Assembly: GCA_038065555.1 (NCBI GenBank)
Contig: JBBTQS010000002.1
Location: 26,399 to 90,398 of the forward strand
Source: Patescibacteria group bacterium
GTDB taxonomy: Bacteria; Patescibacteriota; Patescibacteriia; Magasanikbacterales; JBBTQS01
Length of the DNA stretch: 64,000 bases
Direction of reading: 5' to 3'
Positions within the stretch are counted from its first letter, which is position 1, and each line of letters begins with the position of its first letter. This document shows positions 8,344 to 62,485 of this stretch, in pieces. A model generated the notes under the pieces. The model was not told the origin of the DNA. It searched no databases and saw nothing but the letters and a program-made list of their open reading frames with translations. Made by a program: the position numbers and the translations under genes.

Positions 8344-8365
8344 AGCAGCCAGTTTACAGAAAAAT

Positions 8366-8401
8366 ACAAAAGGGGTACCGTTCATTCTGTACCCCTTTTG
8401 T
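8366..8401 (+). terminator. Rho-independent terminator after thrS
   Basis: 13-bp perfect stem ACAAAAGGGGTAC/GTACCCCTTTTGT followed by a T-rich tract. Overlaps the miaA start region. Confidence 0.5.
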
Positions 8402-8403
8402 AT

Positions 8404-9333
8404 ATGGAAGCACCTACACTCCCAAAGCTGATAGCCATTGTCGGCCCAACCGCATCGGGAAAAACCAACTTGTCACTTGCTGTTGCCAAAGCCATTGGGG
8501 GTGAAATTATTAATGCGGATTCGCGTCAGTTGTATCGTGGAATGGATATTGGGACAGCGAAGGAGTTGAATGATGGAAGTGTGCCTGGTGCATATGCCGT
8601 GCAAGGAGTTGTCCACCACCTTATTGACATCGCAGATCCGGATCAGGAGATTACGCTTGCGCATTATCAGACGCTTACATTTCGTGCGATTGAAGACATA
8701 ACAGCACGTGGCAAAGTACCAATGCTAGTAGGTGGAACAGGACTCTACGTTCAGGCAATTATTGATAATCTTGATATTCCTCGTGTACCACCCAATGCCG
8801 CACTGCGTCATGAACTCGAGAGCCTGACAACCGAAGCGCTCATGGACATCCTCACTGCTGAAGATCCTGAGGCATCTGAGACTATGGATCCATTCAATCG
8901 TCGCTATATTATTCGTGCGATCGAAATCGTGCGCACAACCGGCGCATCAAATGCGTCACAAAAGAAATGCGGTGAGCCGAAGTGCTGCGTGTTGCTGCTC
9001 GGTGTACAGCGTGATCGGGAAGAACTTGCGGTGCGTATTCATGCACGCATTATGAGCATGCTCGAAGCAGGATTGGTGGACGAGACGAAGCGTCTCATGA
9101 GTAAGTACGGATTTCACCTCTCTGCCATGAGCTCGATTGGGTATTGTGAAATGGAATCATACCTTCGCGGAGAAATTTCGCTCGAAGCGGCGATTGAGCG
9201 CATGGAAGCACGCACTCGCCAGTTCGCACGAAGACAACTCACGTGGTGGCGTCGACCAGGGACGCGGGATGTGGTGTGGGTAGAGTCGGATGCTGAGGCT
9301 ATTGGGTTGGCTGAGAAGTTCTTGCGTGCATAG
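8404..9333 (+). CDS. miaA: tRNA dimethylallyltransferase
   Basis: P-loop GPTASGKT followed by DSRQLYRGMDIGTAK, the canonical MiaA N-terminus. Confidence 0.9.
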   Translation: MEAPTLPKLIAIVGPTASGKTNLSLAVAKAIGGEIINADSRQLYRGMDIGTAKELNDGSVPGAYAVQGVVHHLIDIADPDQEITLAHYQTLTFRAIEDITARGKVPMLVGGTGLYVQAIIDNLDIPRVPPNAALRHELESLTTEALMDILTAEDPEASETMDPFNRRYIIRAIEIVRTTGASNASQKKCGEPKCCVLLLGVQRDREELAVRIHARIMSMLEAGLVDETKRLMSKYGFHLSAMSSIGYCEMESYLRGEISLEAAIERMEARTRQFARRQLTWWRRPGTRDVVWVESDAEAIGLAEKFLRA

Positions 9334-9345
9334 ATTCGCGTAACT

Positions 9346-9514
9346 CCAAAAATAAAGAGTGCTTGGTGCGTCGGGGTACAACGTTCCATTCCCTAACCGG
9401 GAATGGCCGTCTCGTTCTCGGCTGATCGGACAATGTATTACGCCTTGCGGCAAATGCAGCTGGCCGATCAGCCTGCGAAAGCCCCCTCGTGCACCAAGCA
9501 CTCTTTGTTTTTGG
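9346..9514 (+). repeat. Structured repeat element, copy A (candidate ncRNA / 3-prime-end element)
   Basis: Roughly 30-bp terminal stem (with G-U pairs) enclosing the conserved core GGGGUACAACGUUCCAUUCCCUAACCGGGAAUGGCCGUCUCGUUCUCGG ... CCUGCGAAAGCCCCC. Immediately 3-prime of miaA. Confidence 0.6.
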
Positions 9515-9599
9515 CGTCGCGCACATCCACGCACCCCAGAGCTTCTGAGTAAGTCTGACAGTGTTTGTGGTATGACACGTCTGTATGAGTGTGCGCGTG

Positions 9600-9772
9600 G
9601 TTACGGGTAGTGTGGTTCCCTCTGTGAAAGGGGGCCAACGGAGGCCGACCGGCCAGCCAGATCCGCCGTTAGGCGATCCGCGTTGTCCGGTCGACCGAGT
9701 TAGAGACCCAATTTCTCGGTTAGAGAAATTGAGGTTGTACCCCGTCACAGAGGGAACCACAGTACCCGTAAC
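9600..9772 (-). repeat. Structured repeat element, copy C (same family, opposite strand, diverged with compensatory changes)
   Basis: The reverse complement aligns helix-by-helix with copies A and B (GGGG UACAAC ... AAUUUCUC UAACCG AGAAAUU ... CCCCC). Paired positions co-vary (ccattccc/ggaatgg becomes aatttctc/agaaatt). The roughly 33-bp terminal stem is unrelated to those of A and B. Confidence 0.55.
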
Positions 9773-9812
9773 AATGAATACACCTCATAAAGATGTGTTA
9801 TACTAAAAACCT

Positions 9813-10280
9813 ATGGGAAGACCTCTACCATCTCGCCCCGACCCCTCAGCCCTGCGCAACCAAATTCGTTTTGGTAGCTCGATTTCGGATATGGCAGCCA
9901 ATCGCGTGCTCAAGAATGCGAATTTGCCCACGGATCGGCCACTGACACTGCACGAACAAGCAGAGGTTCGACGCAAGGCGGCGCGTATGCAGCGCAATAT
10001 TACGTATGACCGTCGCAAGGAGAACTACGAATCGTACAAAGCAGAAATCGCCGCAGAACAATCTGGCCAAGCCTCACAACAAAAAACGCCCGGTGGTCCG
10101 GTACGTCAGGTGGCTCACGGTGTAGCTGCGCAGGCAGATGCAGCAATGAAAAGTCACGGTGTCAGTGCAAAAAGCGCGGGAACTACAGGACTAGCAGGCG
10201 CACCAGGCGCCATGAAGAAAGCATCGTCACCTGTTCAACCATCAACACCGCCACCGCTACTCAAGGACATCATGTTTTGA
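9813..10280 (+). CDS. Hypothetical low-complexity (Ala/Gln/Lys-rich) protein; coding status uncertain
   Basis: ORF with ATG at 9813 preceded by a TATACT -10-like box; no motif. The 3-prime end overlaps convergent rpe by about 45 nt. Confidence 0.3.
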   Translation: MGRPLPSRPDPSALRNQIRFGSSISDMAANRVLKNANLPTDRPLTLHEQAEVRRKAARMQRNITYDRRKENYESYKAEIAAEQSGQASQQKTPGGPVRQVAHGVAAQADAAMKSHGVSAKSAGTTGLAGAPGAMKKASSPVQPSTPPPLLKDIMF

Positions 10281-12236: not shown

Positions 12237-12417
12237 ACTGGCTTCGCGACGTCGCGCACAACAACACAACGCCAACACACCCTCGGATCAACACGGTCCG
12301 GGGGTGCGTTCTTTTGCAGGTTGACTTTTTTGGTAGATTTGGTCTACTGGTGGCAGCACGAATGGTTCGAGGCTCGTGCACGATCTGTGCGCACAACCAC
12401 CGAAAGGGAGAGTAAGC

Positions 12418-13677
12418 ATGGCAAGACGACGTGGGAGTAATCCACCGCCGAATCCTCCTCCAGATGATGAACGCGGGTTCCTGGAGCGATTGGCCTGGGA
12501 AATCTTCTGCGACTGGGATTTCCTGTCCGTCATGGGTAAGCTGGTCGCCGCGGTATTTGTTGCGGTGTGGATGGGCTTCTTCGGGAAGGATGATCCACCC
12601 GAGCCTGAGACATCGGTCGAGCAGACCACGACTCCAGTCGAGGCAACAGTCACGACGCCAATCGAGAACCTCAAGGACTGGAAAATCCAGGATGTACGGA
12701 CCCCGGACGAAGTCGACAAGCAACTCGCGGTCGAGTTCAGTGTGTGTTTGCTCGGGCAAGGACTCGCGCAACGCACCTCGGACATCGAGTTCTGGTTCGA
12801 AAGAACTCTCGCGACAACGCGTCCACTCTCGCTCCGACGAGAGGGTCAGGGAATCGTGAGTCGGTTTTGTTCCAGTGCGTTCACCCTTGCATCATCCATC
12901 GAGATGAGGGAGGTGTGGCGCTACGGAATTTCGCCGACTGACTCGTTGGCGATCACCGCTTTGCCATATAGTTGGGAGTGGTGGTCGCGTCCAGTTGGCA
13001 CACCGGAGTGGAGACTCCTGGGGGAAGTACCTGGGACAGGGATGACGAAAGTCGTCGCGGTCTACGGCCCTTTTCCCGAAGTGCGACAAGGAGAATCCGT
13101 CATCACACCGCAGGCTTCGTCCGGGACAGCGACACCGGATCAGCCCAGCAGTGCACCTGTTCAGGTCTACCGTATCGGAGATATTCGAACGCCCAAACAG
13201 CGCGAGCGCGGCGCAAAGGTGGAATTCGCCTTCTGTCTCGAAGAGGTAGAGCGAAAGCGTCGCAAGAGTATTACGCTCTACTTCGGTAGGACTGGTGAGC
13301 AGGTTCGAGATCTGACGCTTGTTCGTGAGAAGACTGAGGGCGGCGACATGTTCTTTTGCTCGAAGTCGTTCGTTCTCTCTTCTGAGAAGGCGATGATGGA
13401 AGATTGGGTGTATGAAATTGCAGCAGCACAACGCGCTGATTTGCAAGAGCAACCGCCCAAAATGGTGTGGTGGACCAGGGTGCGGAACTCTGGGAGTGAT
13501 TGGACGCCAATCGCGACCCACCATTTCGATGTACACAGGAGTCACGCCTTTCGCGTGAGCTACACCATGACGTCCCCGACGCACAGTAGTAGCGGGGCAA
13601 AGCCGAAAGCGAAGAAGATCAAGCCGTTGGCCACAAAGAAGGAGTCTTTCCAGATTAAAGGGCTCGGCGCGATTTGA
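12418..13677 (+). CDS. Hypothetical membrane-anchored protein (island gene 2) with two tandem copies of an uncharacterised roughly 130-aa domain
   Basis: RBS AAGGGAGAG. N-terminal TM helix (LSVMGKLVAAVFVAVWMGFFG), Thr/Pro linker, then two repeats sharing the pattern TP..EF..CL...W..RT...L.R...G...FCS.F.L.SS.EM.E.W.YEI...W.W. Confidence 0.6.
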   Translation: MARRRGSNPPPNPPPDDERGFLERLAWEIFCDWDFLSVMGKLVAAVFVAVWMGFFGKDDPPEPETSVEQTTTPVEATVTTPIENLKDWKIQDVRTPDEVDKQLAVEFSVCLLGQGLAQRTSDIEFWFERTLATTRPLSLRREGQGIVSRFCSSAFTLASSIEMREVWRYGISPTDSLAITALPYSWEWWSRPVGTPEWRLLGEVPGTGMTKVVAVYGPFPEVRQGESVITPQASSGTATPDQPSSAPVQVYRIGDIRTPKQRERGAKVEFAFCLEEVERKRRKSITLYFGRTGEQVRDLTLVREKTEGGDMFFCSKSFVLSSEKAMMEDWVYEIAAAQRADLQEQPPKMVWWTRVRNSGSDWTPIATHHFDVHRSHAFRVSYTMTSPTHSSSGAKPKAKKIKPLATKKESFQIKGLGAI

Positions 13678-13693
13678 TCACCAACCAACACGG

Positions 13694-13731
13694 ACTCCGG
13701 TTACCAACAAGGTAGCCGGAGTACTGTTTTT
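13694..13731 (+). terminator. Rho-independent terminator closing the island
   Basis: Stem ACTCCGGTTACC/GGTAGCCGGAGT followed by ACTGTTTTT. Confidence 0.5.
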
Positions 13732-19654: not shown

Positions 19655-19726
19655 GCCTTCGTCGTTCAATGGATAGGACACAGGTTTCCGGTACCTGTGA
19701 TAGAGGTTCGATTCCTCTCGAGGGCA
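19655..19726 (+). tRNA. tRNA-Arg (anticodon CCG)
   Basis: Hand-folded cloverleaf: 7-bp acceptor GCCTTCG/CGAGGGC (one G-U pair), D-stem GTTC/GGAC, anticodon stem CAGGT/ACCTG with loop TTCCGGT, T-arm AGAGG-TTCGATT-CCTCT, discriminator A, no encoded CCA. Confidence 0.85.
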
Positions 19727-19877
19727 CAGCCATTCATTCTTTCTGGGGTACAACGTTCCATTCCCTAACCGGGAATGGCCGTCTCGTTCTCGGTCGGCCG
19801 GACAACGGTCCGTCTTTTTGCGTTTTCTGCTGACCGGCCGTCCTGCGAAAGCCCCCAGAAAGAATGAATGGCTGTGC
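19724..19877 (+). repeat. Structured repeat element, copy B; its terminal stem overlaps the last 3 nt of tRNA-Arg
   Basis: Perfect 25-bp terminal stem GCACAGCCATTCATTCTTTCTGGGG/CCCCCAGAAAGAATGAATGGCTGTGC enclosing a core whose first 49 nt are identical to copy A. The internal helix differs from copy A by compensatory changes (CTGATCGG/CCGATCAG becomes TCGGCCGG/CCGGCCGT). Confidence 0.6.
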
Positions 19878-19955
19878 TCCGTTGCATCGTTGACAAGTGG
19901 CGAGAATTTGAGTAGTGTGCGTGAGATACGCGGTGGATTCAAATAGGAGGGCACC

Positions 19956-20366
19956 ATGTACCAAGGCGATGTCCTGATCGTTGTCGAGGAAGTCACGCAC
20001 GCGCTCGAGTACTCCTGCAATGTATTTTTGGGAGAGTCTGGGTTCGCGTGCATTGTCCGATTTCGTATTTCACTGCTCGAGCTGGAGGGGAAACGGCCTG
20101 CAGGTCCGCAGGAGGTTAGAGATGTGTGCAAGTTCTCAGTGGGTGAGCGTGAGTCTGATACCTTAGATGAAGAGGTCTACTGGTTCTGTTACTCTGTGTT
20201 CATTCCTGTTCTGAATAGGCTCTATGTCATGCGTGAAAGTGCCAGAAAGAAAGGCAAGTTATCCGCTATTCCACACGTGTTAGCGGTAGTGGTTCCTGGG
20301 ACTGTCCCGGATACAACCATCGCCAAACTTCGTGAATGCGGCTTCACCCAAAAGCATGAGGCCTGA
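19956..20366 (+). CDS. Hypothetical protein
   Basis: ORF downstream of repeat copy B; no motif recognised. A terminator-like hairpin (AGGTCGATCG...CGGTCGACCT plus TTTTTT) lies at about 20400-20435. Confidence 0.4.
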   Translation: MYQGDVLIVVEEVTHALEYSCNVFLGESGFACIVRFRISLLELEGKRPAGPQEVRDVCKFSVGERESDTLDEEVYWFCYSVFIPVLNRLYVMRESARKKGKLSAIPHVLAVVVPGTVPDTTIAKLRECGFTQKHEA

Positions 20367-20470
20367 GGCAGAACTCACTTCGATTCATAACCAACGCAGG
20401 TCGATCGTAACAACGGTCGACCTCGTGCATTTTTTGGGCACATGTTACTGTGAATGAAAAGTAAATAACA

Positions 20471-32036: not shown

Positions 32037-32465
32037 GGAGCGGTTGCAGCCATCATACGCCGAATTCTGTCGCATCTGCACGGATGCAGACGGGGCGATC
32101 ATATATCTTGGTCTGACATTGCTGGCAGACTCTTTGCGAACGAACTTTTCGGATGTCGCAACCTTGCGGTCGGACAAACGCTGCTCTTGCACCAGGAAGG
32201 GTTTACCACGTTGTGACCCGAAGGACACAGCGAGTCGCGTAGCTGCTGAGATTTGGATATCCGGAACCTCAGAACCTCACGACACTTTTCACCTTTCACG
32301 CACGCGAACGTGCGCTAGTATTGTCTCTGTGGCACTGTCCCGCGCGACGCATCGCTGCGCCGCGGATGGGTGTTACCCACTTCCACGACATGGCCCGAAG
32401 GCCAAGGGTGTTCGGACGTTCCTCTATGCACGCGAGGTGCACAGCGATCGCCGATGGCGGACCAA
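32037..32465 (-). ncRNA. rnpB: RNase P RNA (bacterial type A)
   Basis: Minus-strand transcript carries the P4 5-prime strand AGAGGAACGUCCG (consensus AGGAAAGUCCGGGC), GUGGGUAACACCC (GGUAACGCC), AGUGCCACAGAGACAAUAC (AGUGCAACAGAGAGCAAAC), GUGAAAGGUGAAAAGUG (GGGUGAAAGGGUG), GUGGUAAACCC...GGUGCAAG (CGGUAAACUCC...GGAGCAAG) and the P4 3-prime strand GACAGAAUUCGGCGUA (ACAGAACCCGGCUUA). A short P1 is formed by GCCAUC/GAUGGC. Ends are approximate (plus or minus 15 nt). Confidence 0.75.
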
Positions 32466-34803: not shown

Positions 34804-34885
34804 AGGGGTTTTGGGCAGTATACCATGGGTATTTTGCTCAACAAAAGTGCGGGCATCAGACAGGCGCTAACCCTAGGGTGAAGTT

Positions 34886-34955
34886 AGGTCAGGAGAGTGC
34901 TCCCCCAAGTCGCACTAGCAACCGAAAGCGACTTGGGGGAGCACTCTCCTGACCT
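34886..34955. repeat. Perfect 28-bp hairpin H1 with 14-nt loop ACTAGCAACCGAAA
   Basis: Arms AGGTCAGGAGAGTGCTCCCCCAAGTCGC / GCGACTTGGGGGAGCACTCTCCTGACCT with no mismatch. Confidence 0.6.
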
Positions 34956-35087
34956 CTCTCCATCACAGGGCCAGTGACCGCCCGATGGTCGCGCCTCTGG
35001 TGAACGAAGTCTCCTGGCACACGCCTCGCCTCGACACCGCGTATGCGATGTGTTGTGCATCTGCGCCGTGTGGTGCGCTGTTGCGAG

Positions 35088-35157
35088 AGCTTCAGACACA
35101 TTGTTCCCAACCCGCTTTCGGTTGCTAGTGCGGGTTGGGAACAATGTGTCTGAAGCT
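35088..35157. repeat. Perfect 28-bp hairpin H2; loop TTTCGGTTGCTAGT is the exact reverse complement of the H1 loop, and stems are unrelated except near the loop
   Basis: Arms AGCTTCAGACACATTGTTCCCAACCCGC / GCGGGTTGGGAACAATGTGTCTGAAGCT. Loop-proximal stem bases (CCCAA.yCGC) are shared with H1. Confidence 0.6.
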
Positions 35158-35178
35158 ACCACACCGGTGGACCAACGA

Positions 35179-35221
35179 CGCAAAAACACAACACCCCCGC
35201 AAAAGCGGAGGTGTTGTTGTG
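35179..35221 (-). terminator. Rho-independent terminator of the RNase J gene
   Basis: On the minus strand the stem CACAACAACACCUCCGC/GCGGGGGUGUUGUG closes with a G-U pair and is followed by UUUUUG. On the plus strand the same position would be a C-A mismatch, which assigns the strand. Confidence 0.55.
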
Positions 35222-60949: not shown

Positions 60950-61002
60950 CTAGACGCGCGGACGTTCCAGCGCTATCATGAGGATACGATCACACACTTT
61001 TT

Positions 61003-62421: not shown

Positions 62422-62422
62422 C

Positions 62423-62485
62423 AGACAAAAATAAAAGATTCCTGGAGTACAACGTTGGTCCCCAGGAATCTTTTATTTTTGTCTG
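62423..62485. terminator. Long perfect hairpin terminator after tRNA-Leu(GAG)
   Basis: ACAAAAATAAAAGATTCCTGG ... CCAGGAATCTTTTATTTTTGT. Confidence 0.55.

What the first reader, a model, noticed from the sequence alone, without database searches (positions are those of the whole stretch)
19655..19877. Repeat copy B is fused to the 3-prime end of tRNA-Arg(CCG)
The perfect 25-bp terminal stem of copy B starts at the last three nucleotides (GCA) of the tRNA acceptor stem plus discriminator. The tRNA has no encoded CCA and must be 3-prime processed exactly where the element begins. tRNA 3-prime ends are classic integration sites for mobile DNA, but this element is only 154 nt and carries no integrase. 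An alternative is that the element is co-transcribed and serves as the tRNA 3-prime trailer and processing or termination structure. Either way the junction is unusual and ties the repeat family to tRNA processing or to an integration mechanism.
Basis: partly seen in the sequence, partly recalled or inferred. Interest (0 to 1): 0.6.

Follow-up and report, generated by a model that had tools for sequence, protein, structure and literature searches.

The report
Y-shaped repeat in tRNA-Arg trailer hairpin
Right after a tRNA-Arg gene of an uncultured groundwater bacterium lies a 154-base hairpin whose tip is a 112-base Y-shaped repeat not found in the libraries searched and whose 25-bp stem looks like a mirror copy of the neighbouring DNA, so the three bases shared with the tRNA mark where that copy ends, not where a mobile element integrated.

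Summary
tRNA-Arg(CCG) is at 19655-19726 with no encoded CCA, and a perfect 25-bp inverted repeat (19724-19748 / 19853-19877) starts on its last three bases. The interpretation needs revising.

- **What repeats:** only a 112-114 nt unit (GGGG...CCCCC; B 19745-19856, A 9373-9486, C 9630-9743 on the minus strand). The long stems differ at each locus.
- **Structure:** the unit folds into a Y shape (P2, P3). 15 of 32 pairs covary. It has no Rfam, phage or plasmid match.
- **Stems:** at copies A and C the stems continue into inverted copies of ancestral flanking DNA, including the end of the miaA coding sequence. Related genomes that lack A and C also lack these inverted copies.
- **Relatives at the tRNA-Arg site:** they carry the same junction (90% relative), a diverged full element with mirrored arm changes (80%), a half element of the C type (76%), or nothing but a T-run (72%).
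- **Integration marks:** there is no integrase, no direct repeat of the tRNA end and no shared terminal repeat.

Best reading (confidence 0.55): a lineage-specific structured repeat sits at the tip of the tRNA's trailer hairpin, and replication template switching builds and maintains the stem. This is a new variant of the bacterial palindromic repeats. The unit's function is unknown.

The parts
19655..19726 (+). tRNA-Arg(CCG). The discriminator A is base 19726 and no CCA is encoded.
19724..19744 (+). Locus-specific left arm of copy B. It is the tRNA trailer and begins on G71-C72-A73 of the tRNA.
   Evidence: (I10)
19745..19856 (+). Repeat unit B (112 nt, GGGG...CCCCC). It is Y-shaped: GGGG/CCCC closing pairs, the P2 hairpin and the P3 hairpin.
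   Evidence: (D1, D7)
19753..19782 (+). P2 hairpin of unit B. It has a conserved TAACC loop (19766-19770) and a bulged T.
19792..19843 (+). P3 long hairpin of unit B, with the conserved CGGACAA. Its stem covaries between copies.
19799..19819 (+). Terminator-like site inside P3: CGGAC-AACG-GTCCG, then TC and TTTTT.
   Evidence: It resembles the ancestral terminator at 20398-20435 (33 of 1000 shuffles).
19857..19877 (+). Right arm of copy B. It is an inverted copy of 19724-19744 and ends in TGC, the complement of the tRNA's GCA.
9373..9486 (+). Repeat unit A (81% identical to unit B). It lies downstream of miaA.
9311..9372 (+). 5-prime arm of copy A. The outer part (9311-9345) is ancestral DNA: the last 23 nt of miaA, with its stop codon, and the start of the spacer.
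   Evidence: (I2)
9487..9549 (+). 3-prime arm of copy A. Its outer part is an inverted duplicate of the miaA 3-prime end. Relatives without the element lack it.
   Evidence: (I2)
9630..9743 (-). Repeat unit C. It is 69% identical to unit B and 73% identical to the unit at the tRNA-Arg site of relative L009.
9744..9811 (-). 5-prime arm of copy C, in unit orientation. The outer part (9784-9811) is the ancestral region upstream of the 155-aa gene.
9561..9629 (-). 3-prime arm of copy C. The outer part (9561-9588) is an inverted duplicate of 9784-9811 (22 of 27 bases).
62422..62485 (+). 32-bp trailer hairpin that starts one base after tRNA-Leu(GAG). Its tip, GGAGTACAAC|GTTGGTCCCC, equals the two ends of a unit with nothing between them.
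   Evidence: (I6)
20398..20435 (+). Ancestral tRNA-Arg terminator: the hairpin GGTCGATCG-TAACAA-CGGTCGACC, then TCGTGCA and TTTTTT. It is orthologous to the 3-prime end of the unit in L009 and to the T-run right after the tRNA in L011.

Best explanation
Copy B is one of a few copies of a lineage-specific, roughly 112-nt Y-shaped structured repeat unit in an uncultured Patescibacteria-like groundwater bacterium. The unit sits at the tip of the long hairpin that forms the 3-prime trailer of tRNA-Arg(CCG).

**The stem.** The 25-bp stem does not belong to the repeat. It is local DNA.
- The left arm is the tRNA trailer.
- The right arm is a reverse-complement copy of it.
- The likely mechanism is intra-strand template switching during DNA replication. 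The newly made strand, having copied the tightly folded unit from GGGG to CCCCC, folds back and copies its own 5-prime flank.
- Later events of the same kind would keep the inner 25-30 bp perfectly complementary while the sequence drifts.

**The overlap.** The copy at this locus ran three bases into the tRNA gene, giving GCA...TGC. It reaches no further, most likely because a longer stem would sequester the acceptor stem.

**Function.** The hairpin and the hairpin-plus-T-run inside P3 probably act as the trailer and terminator of the tRNA.

**Shown here:**
- the anatomy of the unit and its arms;
- covariation in the unit;
- that the arms of A and C derive from ancestral flanking DNA;
- presence and absence of the element in relatives;
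- the lack of integration hallmarks.

**Inferred:**
- template switching as the mechanism;
- selection as the reason the stem stops at the tRNA;
- the terminator role.

How units reach new loci is unknown.
For: 1. **Only the unit repeats.** Units A and B share exactly GGGG...CCCCC, and the arms are unrelated.
2. **The arms of A and C are copies of ancestral flank.** Both run into ancestral DNA on the unit's 5-prime side and into its reverse complement on the 3-prime side.
   - A: the miaA 3-prime end, 19 of 25 bases, in register with the inner stem; 6 of 2000 shuffles score as well.
   - C: the region upstream of the 155-aa gene, 22 of 27 bases; 0 of 2000 shuffles.
   - Relatives L009 and L011 have a spacer of 25 and 42 nt there, with neither the units nor the inverted copies.
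3. **Complementarity falls with distance.** It is perfect next to the unit and drops to 60-80% further out, over 60-80 nt.
4. **Arms next to a tRNA stop at the tRNA.** This holds for B, L013B and the tRNA-Leu hairpin.
5. **Arm changes are mirrored.** B and its ortholog in L013 differ at 13 of 25 arm positions. All 13 changes are mirrored on the other arm, leaving 25/25 and 24/25 paired.
6. **Adjacent pairs change together.** Copy A in the window and in the 90% relative L008 differ by three adjacent pairs switched together, GCT/AGC to ATC/GAT.
7. **Few one-sided changes in the unit.** 23 cells changed on both sides. Only 3 G-T cells occur in the unit's sense, against 7 A-C cells.
8. **The mechanism is documented.** Template switching is reported to create reverse-complement repeats, perfect stems and multi-base compensatory changes (PMC8794818).
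9. **The overlap does not help the tRNA.** In a read-through transcript the long stem would destroy the acceptor stem.
10. **Terminator-like sites.** The copies next to tRNA-Arg carry hairpin-plus-T-run sites.
11. **The ancestral terminator survives.** In L009 it is continuous with the 3-prime end of the unit. In the window it lies at 20398-20435.
Against: - There is no direct evidence for template switching. Other DNA-level routes to an inverted duplication, such as repair of a hairpin-capped break, fit equally well.
- Selection on an RNA or DNA stem could also keep the arms paired.
- Template switching does not explain how the unit spread to new loci. It also does not explain why junction and loop sequences (GTACAAC, TAACC, GTCTCnnnCTCGG, CGGACAA) are conserved between copies that are only 56-73% identical. 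That conservation suggests something recognises the unit.
- The 72% relative has a 4-bp GCAC/GTGC hairpin at the same position without a unit. The overlap may therefore be older than the unit.
- Different Y-shaped elements follow tRNA genes in more distant relatives. This hints at a real link with tRNA 3-prime ends that this model treats only as tolerance of the site.
- Only about six unit copies were available.
Confidence: 0.55

Rival explanations
1. The unit is a previously undescribed small structured RNA. It is transcribed by read-through from the upstream tRNA or mRNA. A double-strand-specific nuclease such as RNase III releases it by cutting the long stem. A protein recognises its conserved loops and junctions. 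On this view the stem on the tRNA end is a processing helix.
For: - The Y-shaped fold is strongly supported: 92% of cells are paired, against 30-47% in slid controls, and 15 of 32 pairs covary.
- Loop and junction sequences are conserved.
- Copy A, copy B and the tRNA-Leu hairpin have the orientation of the upstream gene.
- Elements of the same shape but different sequence follow tRNA-Leu and tRNA-Arg in relatives.
- No Rfam family matches, so it would be new.
Against: - G-U pairs are not in excess on the sense strand: 3 G-T against 7 A-C.
- T-runs inside the copies next to tRNA-Arg would end transcription before the 3-prime arm.
- Copy C lies antisense to its neighbouring genes.
- Copies decay freely. 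L008 and L009 have lost one arm and the unit's 3-prime end. L011 lacks the element altogether.
- Full pairing would unfold the tRNA acceptor stem.
- No expression data could be examined.
Confidence: 0.2
2. The unit is a non-autonomous mobile element that inserts, as single-stranded DNA, into the tips of hairpins such as terminators and tRNA trailers. It lands 3-prime of an ACAAC-like loop motif and is moved by an enzyme encoded elsewhere, for example a Y1 transposase of the IS200/IS605 or REP-associated type. On this view the long stems are the targeted hairpins.
For: - Every unit starts right after GGGGTACAAC.
- Ordinary terminators of this genome have AACAA or AACAC loops.
- The tRNA-Leu hairpin tip looks like the two ends of a unit joined.
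- The unit has a hairpin near each end and neither long terminal repeats nor a target duplication. That matches IS200/IS605-type ends.
- The unit at the tRNA-Arg site of L009 is closer to window copy C (73%) than to window copy B (56%), so units move or convert between loci.
- Copies A and C are insertions relative to L009 and L011.
Against: - Empty sites in relatives have no pre-existing long hairpin. The outer arms contain inverted copies of ancestral flanking DNA, so they were made and not targeted.
- P2 and P3 do not resemble each other, unlike the two ends bound by one Y1 transposase.
- No transposase was found among the window and flank proteins checked.
- Pattern scans found only one further copy (in the L009 genome) among 185,579 species genomes, and none in JGI metagenomes or viral contigs.
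Confidence: 0.15
3. The hairpin is an artefact of assembly or amplification, which are known to produce chimeric inverted repeats.
For: Short-read contigs from several runs break at or inside the element.
Against: - The same sequence occurs in several independent assemblies of different samples.
- Diverged orthologous versions exist in unrelated projects: ENA Hainich, Logan SRR22388190, GCA_021733385.1 and GCA_964627055.1.
- The contig breaks are what a repeated core would cause.
Confidence: 0.02

Closest known systems
Hairpins created and maintained by replication template switching (quasipalindrome correction; Monttinen and Loytynoja 2022, PMC8794818)
   Same: - The arms are reverse-complement copies of adjacent sequence.
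- The stems are perfect.
- Several neighbouring pairs change together, and one-sided intermediates are few.
   Different: - The copies here are long: 25 to about 70 nt.
- They recur at every copy of one particular structured unit and start exactly at its boundary.
- One of them takes in the end of a coding sequence.
REP / BIME / REPIN palindromic repeats of bacteria (Di Nocera et al. 2013, PMC3733652)
   Same: - They are intergenic and lie mostly just downstream of genes.
- They form hairpins.
- They probably contribute to termination or 3-prime-end protection.
- They are non-coding and lineage-specific.
   Different: - The conserved part here is a 112-nt branched unit at the hairpin tip, and the stem varies. 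In REPs the palindrome itself is the conserved part.
- There is no GTAG or CGTC tag.
- Only a few copies were seen.
- No REP-associated transposase was seen.
MITEs and tRNA-targeting integrative elements
   Same: It is small and non-coding, it is present or absent between related genomes, and one copy abuts a tRNA 3-prime end.
   Different: - Copies share no terminal inverted repeats beyond GGGG/CCCC.
- There is no target-site duplication.
- There is no integrase.
- The far side has no direct repeat of the tRNA end.
Intrinsic (bidirectional) terminators and tRNA 3-prime trailers
   Same: - The position is immediately after the gene.
- The stems of copy A and the tRNA-Leu hairpin contain A-tracts and T-tracts.
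- The copies next to tRNA-Arg contain hairpin-plus-T-run sites.
- In L009 the ancestral tRNA-Arg terminator is continuous with the unit.
   Different: - It is far longer than a terminator and is branched.
- The 25-bp stem of copy B is not followed by a T-run.
- The unit is a repeated sequence.

Membership tests
tRNA-targeting integrative element (att site) | A tyrosine or serine recombinase gene next to the junction | tested here: not met
   Pfam annotation of the genes within 10 kb on either side and of most of the remaining long window ORFs shows no integrase, transposase or reverse transcriptase.
tRNA-targeting integrative element (att site) | A direct repeat of the tRNA 3-prime end on the far side of the insert | tested here: not met
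   The longest direct word shared by the flanks of copy B is 3 nt. The tRNA end recurs only as the inverted TGC.
MITE | Terminal inverted repeats conserved between copies | tested here: not met
   The arms of A, B and C are unrelated in sequence. Only GGGG/CCCC is shared.
MITE | Target-site duplication (direct) | tested here: not met
   The words shared across unit or element boundaries are short (0-5 nt), differ at every copy, and do not sit at both junctions.
REP / BIME / REPIN | A 20-40 bp conserved palindrome with an unpaired GTAG or CGTC tag (PMC3733652) | tested here: not met
   The conserved part is a 112-nt branched unit that begins GGGGTACAAC, and the palindromic stems vary.
REP / BIME / REPIN | A REP-associated tyrosine transposase in the genome, and high copy number | not testable with these tools
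   Only 64 kb plus about 8 kb of flank from a closely related strain could be read. It holds three units and no such gene.
Intrinsic terminator | A G+C-rich hairpin followed directly by a T-run | tested here: inconclusive
   - A weak site lies inside P3 of copy B (19799-19819).
- Clearer sites occur in L013B and L009B.
- The 25-bp outer stem of copy B has no T-run after it.
Any Rfam family (including ribozymes, retron msr, Y RNA, 6S) | A match to the covariance model | tested here: not met
   There is no match on the element at gathering score. With E up to 10 the only overlapping match is a chance mir-341 hit on copy C (15.2 bits against a gathering score of 90, E = 4).
Retron non-coding RNA | An adjacent reverse transcriptase gene | tested here: not met
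   No reverse transcriptase domain was found near any copy or among the window proteins checked.
IS200/IS605-type miniature element | Two similar subterminal hairpins, insertion 3-prime of a fixed 4-5 nt target, no terminal repeats or duplication, and a Y1 transposase | tested here: inconclusive
   - For: a constant ACAAC sits at the 5-prime boundary, and there are no terminal repeats or duplication.
- Against: P2 and P3 are dissimilar, and no transposase was seen.
Template-switch-generated hairpin | One arm is a reverse-complement copy of adjacent pre-existing sequence, and multi-base changes are mirrored | tested here: met
   The outer arms of A and C copy ancestral flanking DNA that relatives' empty sites have in one copy only. 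Mirrored changes appear.

The most novel reading that the evidence does not exclude
The roughly 112-nt Y-shaped unit is a previously undescribed kind of genetic element in Patescibacteria. It would be either of two things:
- a mobile structured DNA that settles at the tips of hairpins after tRNA and other genes, and leaves a long inverted duplication of its flank instead of a direct one; or
- a new class of small RNA cut out of tRNA and mRNA trailers.

Unrelated Y-shaped elements sit behind tRNA-Leu and tRNA-Arg in sister lineages. That would make this a general feature of tRNA gene ends in the clade.
Probability: 0.2. Interest if true: 0.75.

Novelty: new variant of a known kind. Interest (0 to 1): 0.45.

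Why it matters
- **Reading of tRNA overlaps.** The case shows that an overlap between a repeat and a tRNA end need not be an integration scar.
- **A natural example of large-scale template switching.** It is an unusually clear case in which replication template switching appears to build hairpins of 25-70 bp out of neighbouring DNA, coding sequence included, and to keep them perfect over long evolutionary times.
- **Consequences for covariation as evidence.** Covariation in such regions cannot be taken on its own as proof of a functional RNA.
- **Link to Patescibacteria biology.** If the conserved unit is recognised by a protein or is a processed RNA, it would be a new component of the little-known RNA or DNA biology of these reduced bacteria, tied to how their tRNA genes without an encoded CCA end.

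Tried and rejected
**Database and collection searches**
- Rfam, at gathering score over the whole window and at E up to 10 on both element regions: nothing real on the element.
- Two pattern scans of 185,579 species genomes: the first found nothing. The second found only the contig of relative L009.
- A pattern scan of JGI metagenomes: one chance hit without a hairpin.
- Viral contigs: nothing with the long pattern. A short pattern gave 19 hits, which the covariance model did not confirm.
- blastn against phage and plasmid records: no match.

**Searches of held sequence**
- Covariance model R1 over the window and 33 loci (about 390 kb): no copies beyond those already known.

**Readings considered and dropped**
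- Hammerhead or another self-cleaving ribozyme. The GAAA near the 3-prime end is absent from copy C, and no Rfam ribozyme model matches.
- Retron RNA. No reverse transcriptase was found.
- Integron attC. The RYYYAAC and GTTRRRY-like words lie at the tip of the hairpin rather than at its base, and no integrase was found.
- Insertion into a pre-existing long hairpin. The empty sites in relatives have none.
- A remnant of P2 in front of the ancestral terminator at 20398: not supported.

**Inconclusive or uninformative**
- A test for RNA strand bias, G-U against A-C, gave no signal.
- The cluster look-up for organism names returned none.
- Literature searches found no description of such elements in Patescibacteria.

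Full report
**1. The observation**

tRNA-Arg(CCG) lies at 19655-19726 (Rfam, 57.9 bits; ARAGORN adds one base). The acceptor 3-prime strand CGAGGGC is followed by the discriminator A at 19726 and then CAG, so CCA is not encoded. A perfect 25-nt inverted repeat lies at 19724-19748 and 19853-19877 (I10). Its first three bases are the last three of the tRNA. The arm sequence occurs nowhere else in the window, with 0 matches expected. The 154 nt fold at -86.8 kcal/mol, z = -11.9.

**2. What is actually repeated**

Two further copies lie between miaA (8398-9333) and a conserved 155-aa gene (9813-10280): copy A on the plus strand and copy C on the minus strand.
- The copies share only an inner unit from GGGG to CCCCC: A 9373-9486, B 19745-19856, C 9630-9743.
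- Units A and B are identical over the first 49 nt and the last 15 nt but differ in the middle. Overall identity is 81% for A and B and 69% for B and C.
- The long stems around the units are unrelated in sequence.
- This is the reverse of a MITE, in which the ends are conserved.
- A covariance model built from six units finds no other copy in the window or in 33 fetched loci.

**3. The unit is a Y-shaped structure**

Each copy folds the same way.
- A long outer stem closes on GGGG/CCCC.
- Then comes a single-stranded UACAAC.
- Hairpin P2 follows, about 11 bp, with a bulged U and a UAACC loop.
- A junction GUCUCnnnCUCGG leads into a long hairpin P3 that carries CGGACAA.

On six units, 92.4% of cells are paired, against 30-47% when partners are slid by 1-3 columns. 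15 of 32 pairs have changes on both sides, and no shuffle out of 500 reaches the observed values. One-sided changes are rare. G-T pairs in the unit's sense (3) do not exceed A-C pairs (7). The pairing is therefore clearly maintained, but nothing marks it as RNA rather than DNA pairing. No Rfam family matches, and no phage or plasmid record does.

**4. The stems are inverted copies of the flank**

This is the key result. The source is a Hainich groundwater metagenome contig. Its nearest named homologs are from Patescibacteria. Syntenic loci were fetched from relatives through homologs of the FemAB-family gene that precedes the tRNA.
- In the 76% and 72% relatives (L009, L011) the miaA to 155-aa-gene spacer is 25 and 42 nt. 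In the window it is 479 nt. Copies A and C are therefore extra DNA.
- The 5-prime arm of A runs outward into the last 23 nt of miaA, which is ancestral. The 3-prime arm carries its reverse complement: 19 of 25 bases, in register with the inner stem, with 6 of 2000 shuffles scoring as well.
- The 5-prime arm of C, in unit orientation, runs into the ancestral region upstream of the 155-aa gene, and the other arm carries its reverse complement: 22 of 27 bases, 0 of 2000 shuffles.
- Nearly the whole 479-nt spacer is thus flank, unit A, inverted flank, inverted flank, unit C, flank.
- Relatives have the flank only once, so the palindromes were made and did not pre-exist.
- Complementarity is perfect next to the unit and falls to 60-80% further out, over 60-80 nt.
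- In A, B and C the ancestral sequence is always on the unit's 5-prime side and the copy on its 3-prime side.

**5. The tRNA-Arg site in relatives**

| Locus | FemAB identity to window | What follows tRNA-Arg |
|---|---|---|
| L008 | 90% | The same junction. Both ends of the short contig break inside units. |
| L013 | 80% | A full element. Its stem again runs from GCAC on the tRNA end to GTGC. 13 of 25 arm positions differ from B, all 13 are mirrored on the other arm, and 24 of 25 remain paired. The flanks just outside are alignable, so it is an ortholog. |
| L009 | 76% | A left arm of the same length, then a unit of the C type (73% to window C, 56% to window B). The 3-prime arm and the CCCCC end are missing. 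The unit ends in TCGCGC and a T-run. |
| L011 | 72% | No unit. Only GCAC-10 nt-GTGC and a T-run. |
| L023 | 54% | tRNA-Arg with an encoded CCA. Five bases later a different Y-shaped element starts. |
| L015, L017 | 47%, 39% | No tRNA at this place. |

The association of tRNA-Arg with a hairpin element is therefore old. The units are exchanged between loci. Elements also decay and are lost.

**6. tRNA trailers in general**

- In this genome tRNA-Leu(GAG) is followed at once by a 32-bp hairpin (62422-62485). Its tip, GGAGTACAAC|GTTGGTCCCC, equals the two ends of a unit.
- In a 96-97% identical strain, tRNA-Val(TAC) is followed by a 21-bp hairpin with an A-tract and a T-tract.
- Two other tRNA genes in the window have no such hairpin.
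- In 62-64% relatives, tRNA-Leu(GAG) is followed by a Y-shaped element of another sequence family, related to the one behind tRNA-Arg in L023.
- Stems that abut a tRNA stop abruptly at the tRNA. Stems in other spacers run on for 60-80 nt.
- A read-through precursor is predicted to extend the stem to 27 bp and lose the acceptor stem. Extension into the tRNA should therefore be harmful. This explains why the overlap is only 3 nt and argues against the overlap being a processing device.

**7. Terminator features and the neighbourhood**

- Copy B contains CGGAC-AACG-GTCCG followed by TCTTTTT inside P3. L013B contains AACGCC-TCAC-GGCGTT followed by TTTT.
- L009B ends in a T-run that is orthologous to window 20413-20435: 19 of 21 bases, 0 of 1000 shuffles.
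- That window site is a plain hairpin plus T-run just before a cupin gene. In L011 the same CTCGTGCATTTTT follows the tRNA directly.
- The window thus has copy B and an orphan 136-aa gene (19956-20366) between the tRNA and its ancestral terminator, and it has lost a 190-aa gene further on. The region behind the tRNA is variable.
- No integrase, transposase or reverse transcriptase is found among the window proteins checked. No direct duplication flanks any unit or element.

**8. Mechanism**

The simplest account of sections 2-7 is that the unit acts as a seed for intra-strand template switching. Once the new strand has copied the compact unit, its CCCC end can pair with the GGGG at the start of the unit. 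The polymerase then copies the strand's own 5-prime flank backwards before it returns to the template.

This makes a stem that starts exactly at the unit boundary, is specific to the locus and is perfect. Repeated events of varying length renew the inner part more often than the outer part, which gives the observed gradient. They also produce mirrored multi-base changes such as those between B and L013B, and the three adjacent pairs switched between copy A of the window and of L008.

Template switching is documented to create reverse-complement repeats and perfect stems and to maintain pairing (PMC8794818). This step is inferred, not shown. The model does not explain how units reach new loci or why their loops and junctions stay conserved. 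Two rivals therefore remain open: a processed small RNA, and a hairpin-tip-seeking mobile element.

**9. Comparison with known kinds**

- It behaves like a REP or BIME in position and probable effect, but it fails their definition: a conserved short palindrome with a GTAG or CGTC tag.
- It is not a MITE, an att site, a retron RNA or a known Rfam RNA.
- Its stems fit template-switch hairpins.

I file it as a new variant of the bacterial intergenic palindromic repeats, with a conserved branched tip and flank-derived stems.

**10. Limits**

- Only six units from four or five genomes were available.
- No complete genome and no expression data could be read.
- The polarity rule rests on three loci.
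- The pattern scans of public collections require exact motifs and would miss diverged families.

Noticed in passing
window 34834-35007 and 35036-35209: A second family of giant hairpins fills the spacer between a class I tRNA synthetase gene and the RNase J gene. The two hairpins have perfect 28-bp stems that differ in sequence, the same 14-nt loop (ACTAGCAACCGAAA, in opposite orientations) and shared closing pairs. Their arms continue to about 80 nt at roughly 70% complementarity. The design matches the finding: a conserved tip and locus-specific stems.
   Followed up: partly
L019 10610-10750, L021 8276-8335, L023 1632-1775: More distant relatives carry a different Y-shaped element (outer stem, a P2 with a CCAGC loop, a long P3) directly behind tRNA-Leu(GAG) and tRNA-Arg(CCG). 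The habit of placing branched hairpins after tRNA genes is therefore wider than the unit studied here.
   Followed up: partly
window 19726, 37248, 51330, 62421; L022 14733; L023 1629-1631: All five tRNA genes read in this genome and its close strain have CA, not CCA, directly after the discriminator. The tRNA-Arg of the 54% relative encodes a full CCA.
   Followed up: no
window 19878-20470: An orphan 136-aa gene (19956-20366, no Pfam match) lies between copy B and the ancestral tRNA-Arg terminator. It is preceded by TTGACA, a 17-nt spacer and TAGTGT. Relatives have the cupin gene there instead, L013 has yet another gene, and the 190-aa gene that follows the cupin gene in relatives is missing here.
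   Followed up: partly
window 8362-8405: The terminator after the threonyl-tRNA synthetase gene is AAAAGGGGTAC-CGTTCATTCT-GTACCCCTTTT. Its stem and loop resemble the 5-prime end of units A and B (GGGGTACAACGTTCCATTC). Relatives have the same stem with a different loop (GGTGAATTCY).
   Followed up: partly
window 12278-12306, 13694-13722, 20398-20423: Several ordinary terminators have AACAA or AACAC loops. These resemble the ACAAC that precedes the branches in the unit (UACAAC after the closing stem, GGACAAC in P3).
   Followed up: no
L004, L005, L006, L008 contig ends: Short-read contigs from several runs end at or inside the element. L008 starts inside unit A and ends inside unit B. The repeat breaks assemblies, which may hide such elements in binned genomes.
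   Followed up: yes
window 32045-32458 (minus strand): Bacterial class A RNase P RNA scores only 131.5 bits, with several insertions relative to the model.
   Followed up: no
L022 6669-9470 against window 60951-60999: A 96-97% identical strain from another sample carries a 2.8-kb insertion with two genes of unknown function. In the window the corresponding stretch is 48 nt.
   Followed up: no
L012 / L009 (CAZVGV010000005.1, GCA_964627055.1): The public record is titled 'uncultured Gammaproteobacteria bacterium'. Its gene order matches this Patescibacteria-like genome, at 76% FemAB identity, so the label looks wrong.
   Followed up: no
L003 against window 12567-12675: A population variant differs by a 21-nt insertion and a cluster of substitutions inside a 433-aa gene of unknown function. 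It also has three base changes in copy C (9618, 9678-9679) that are not compensated.
   Followed up: no
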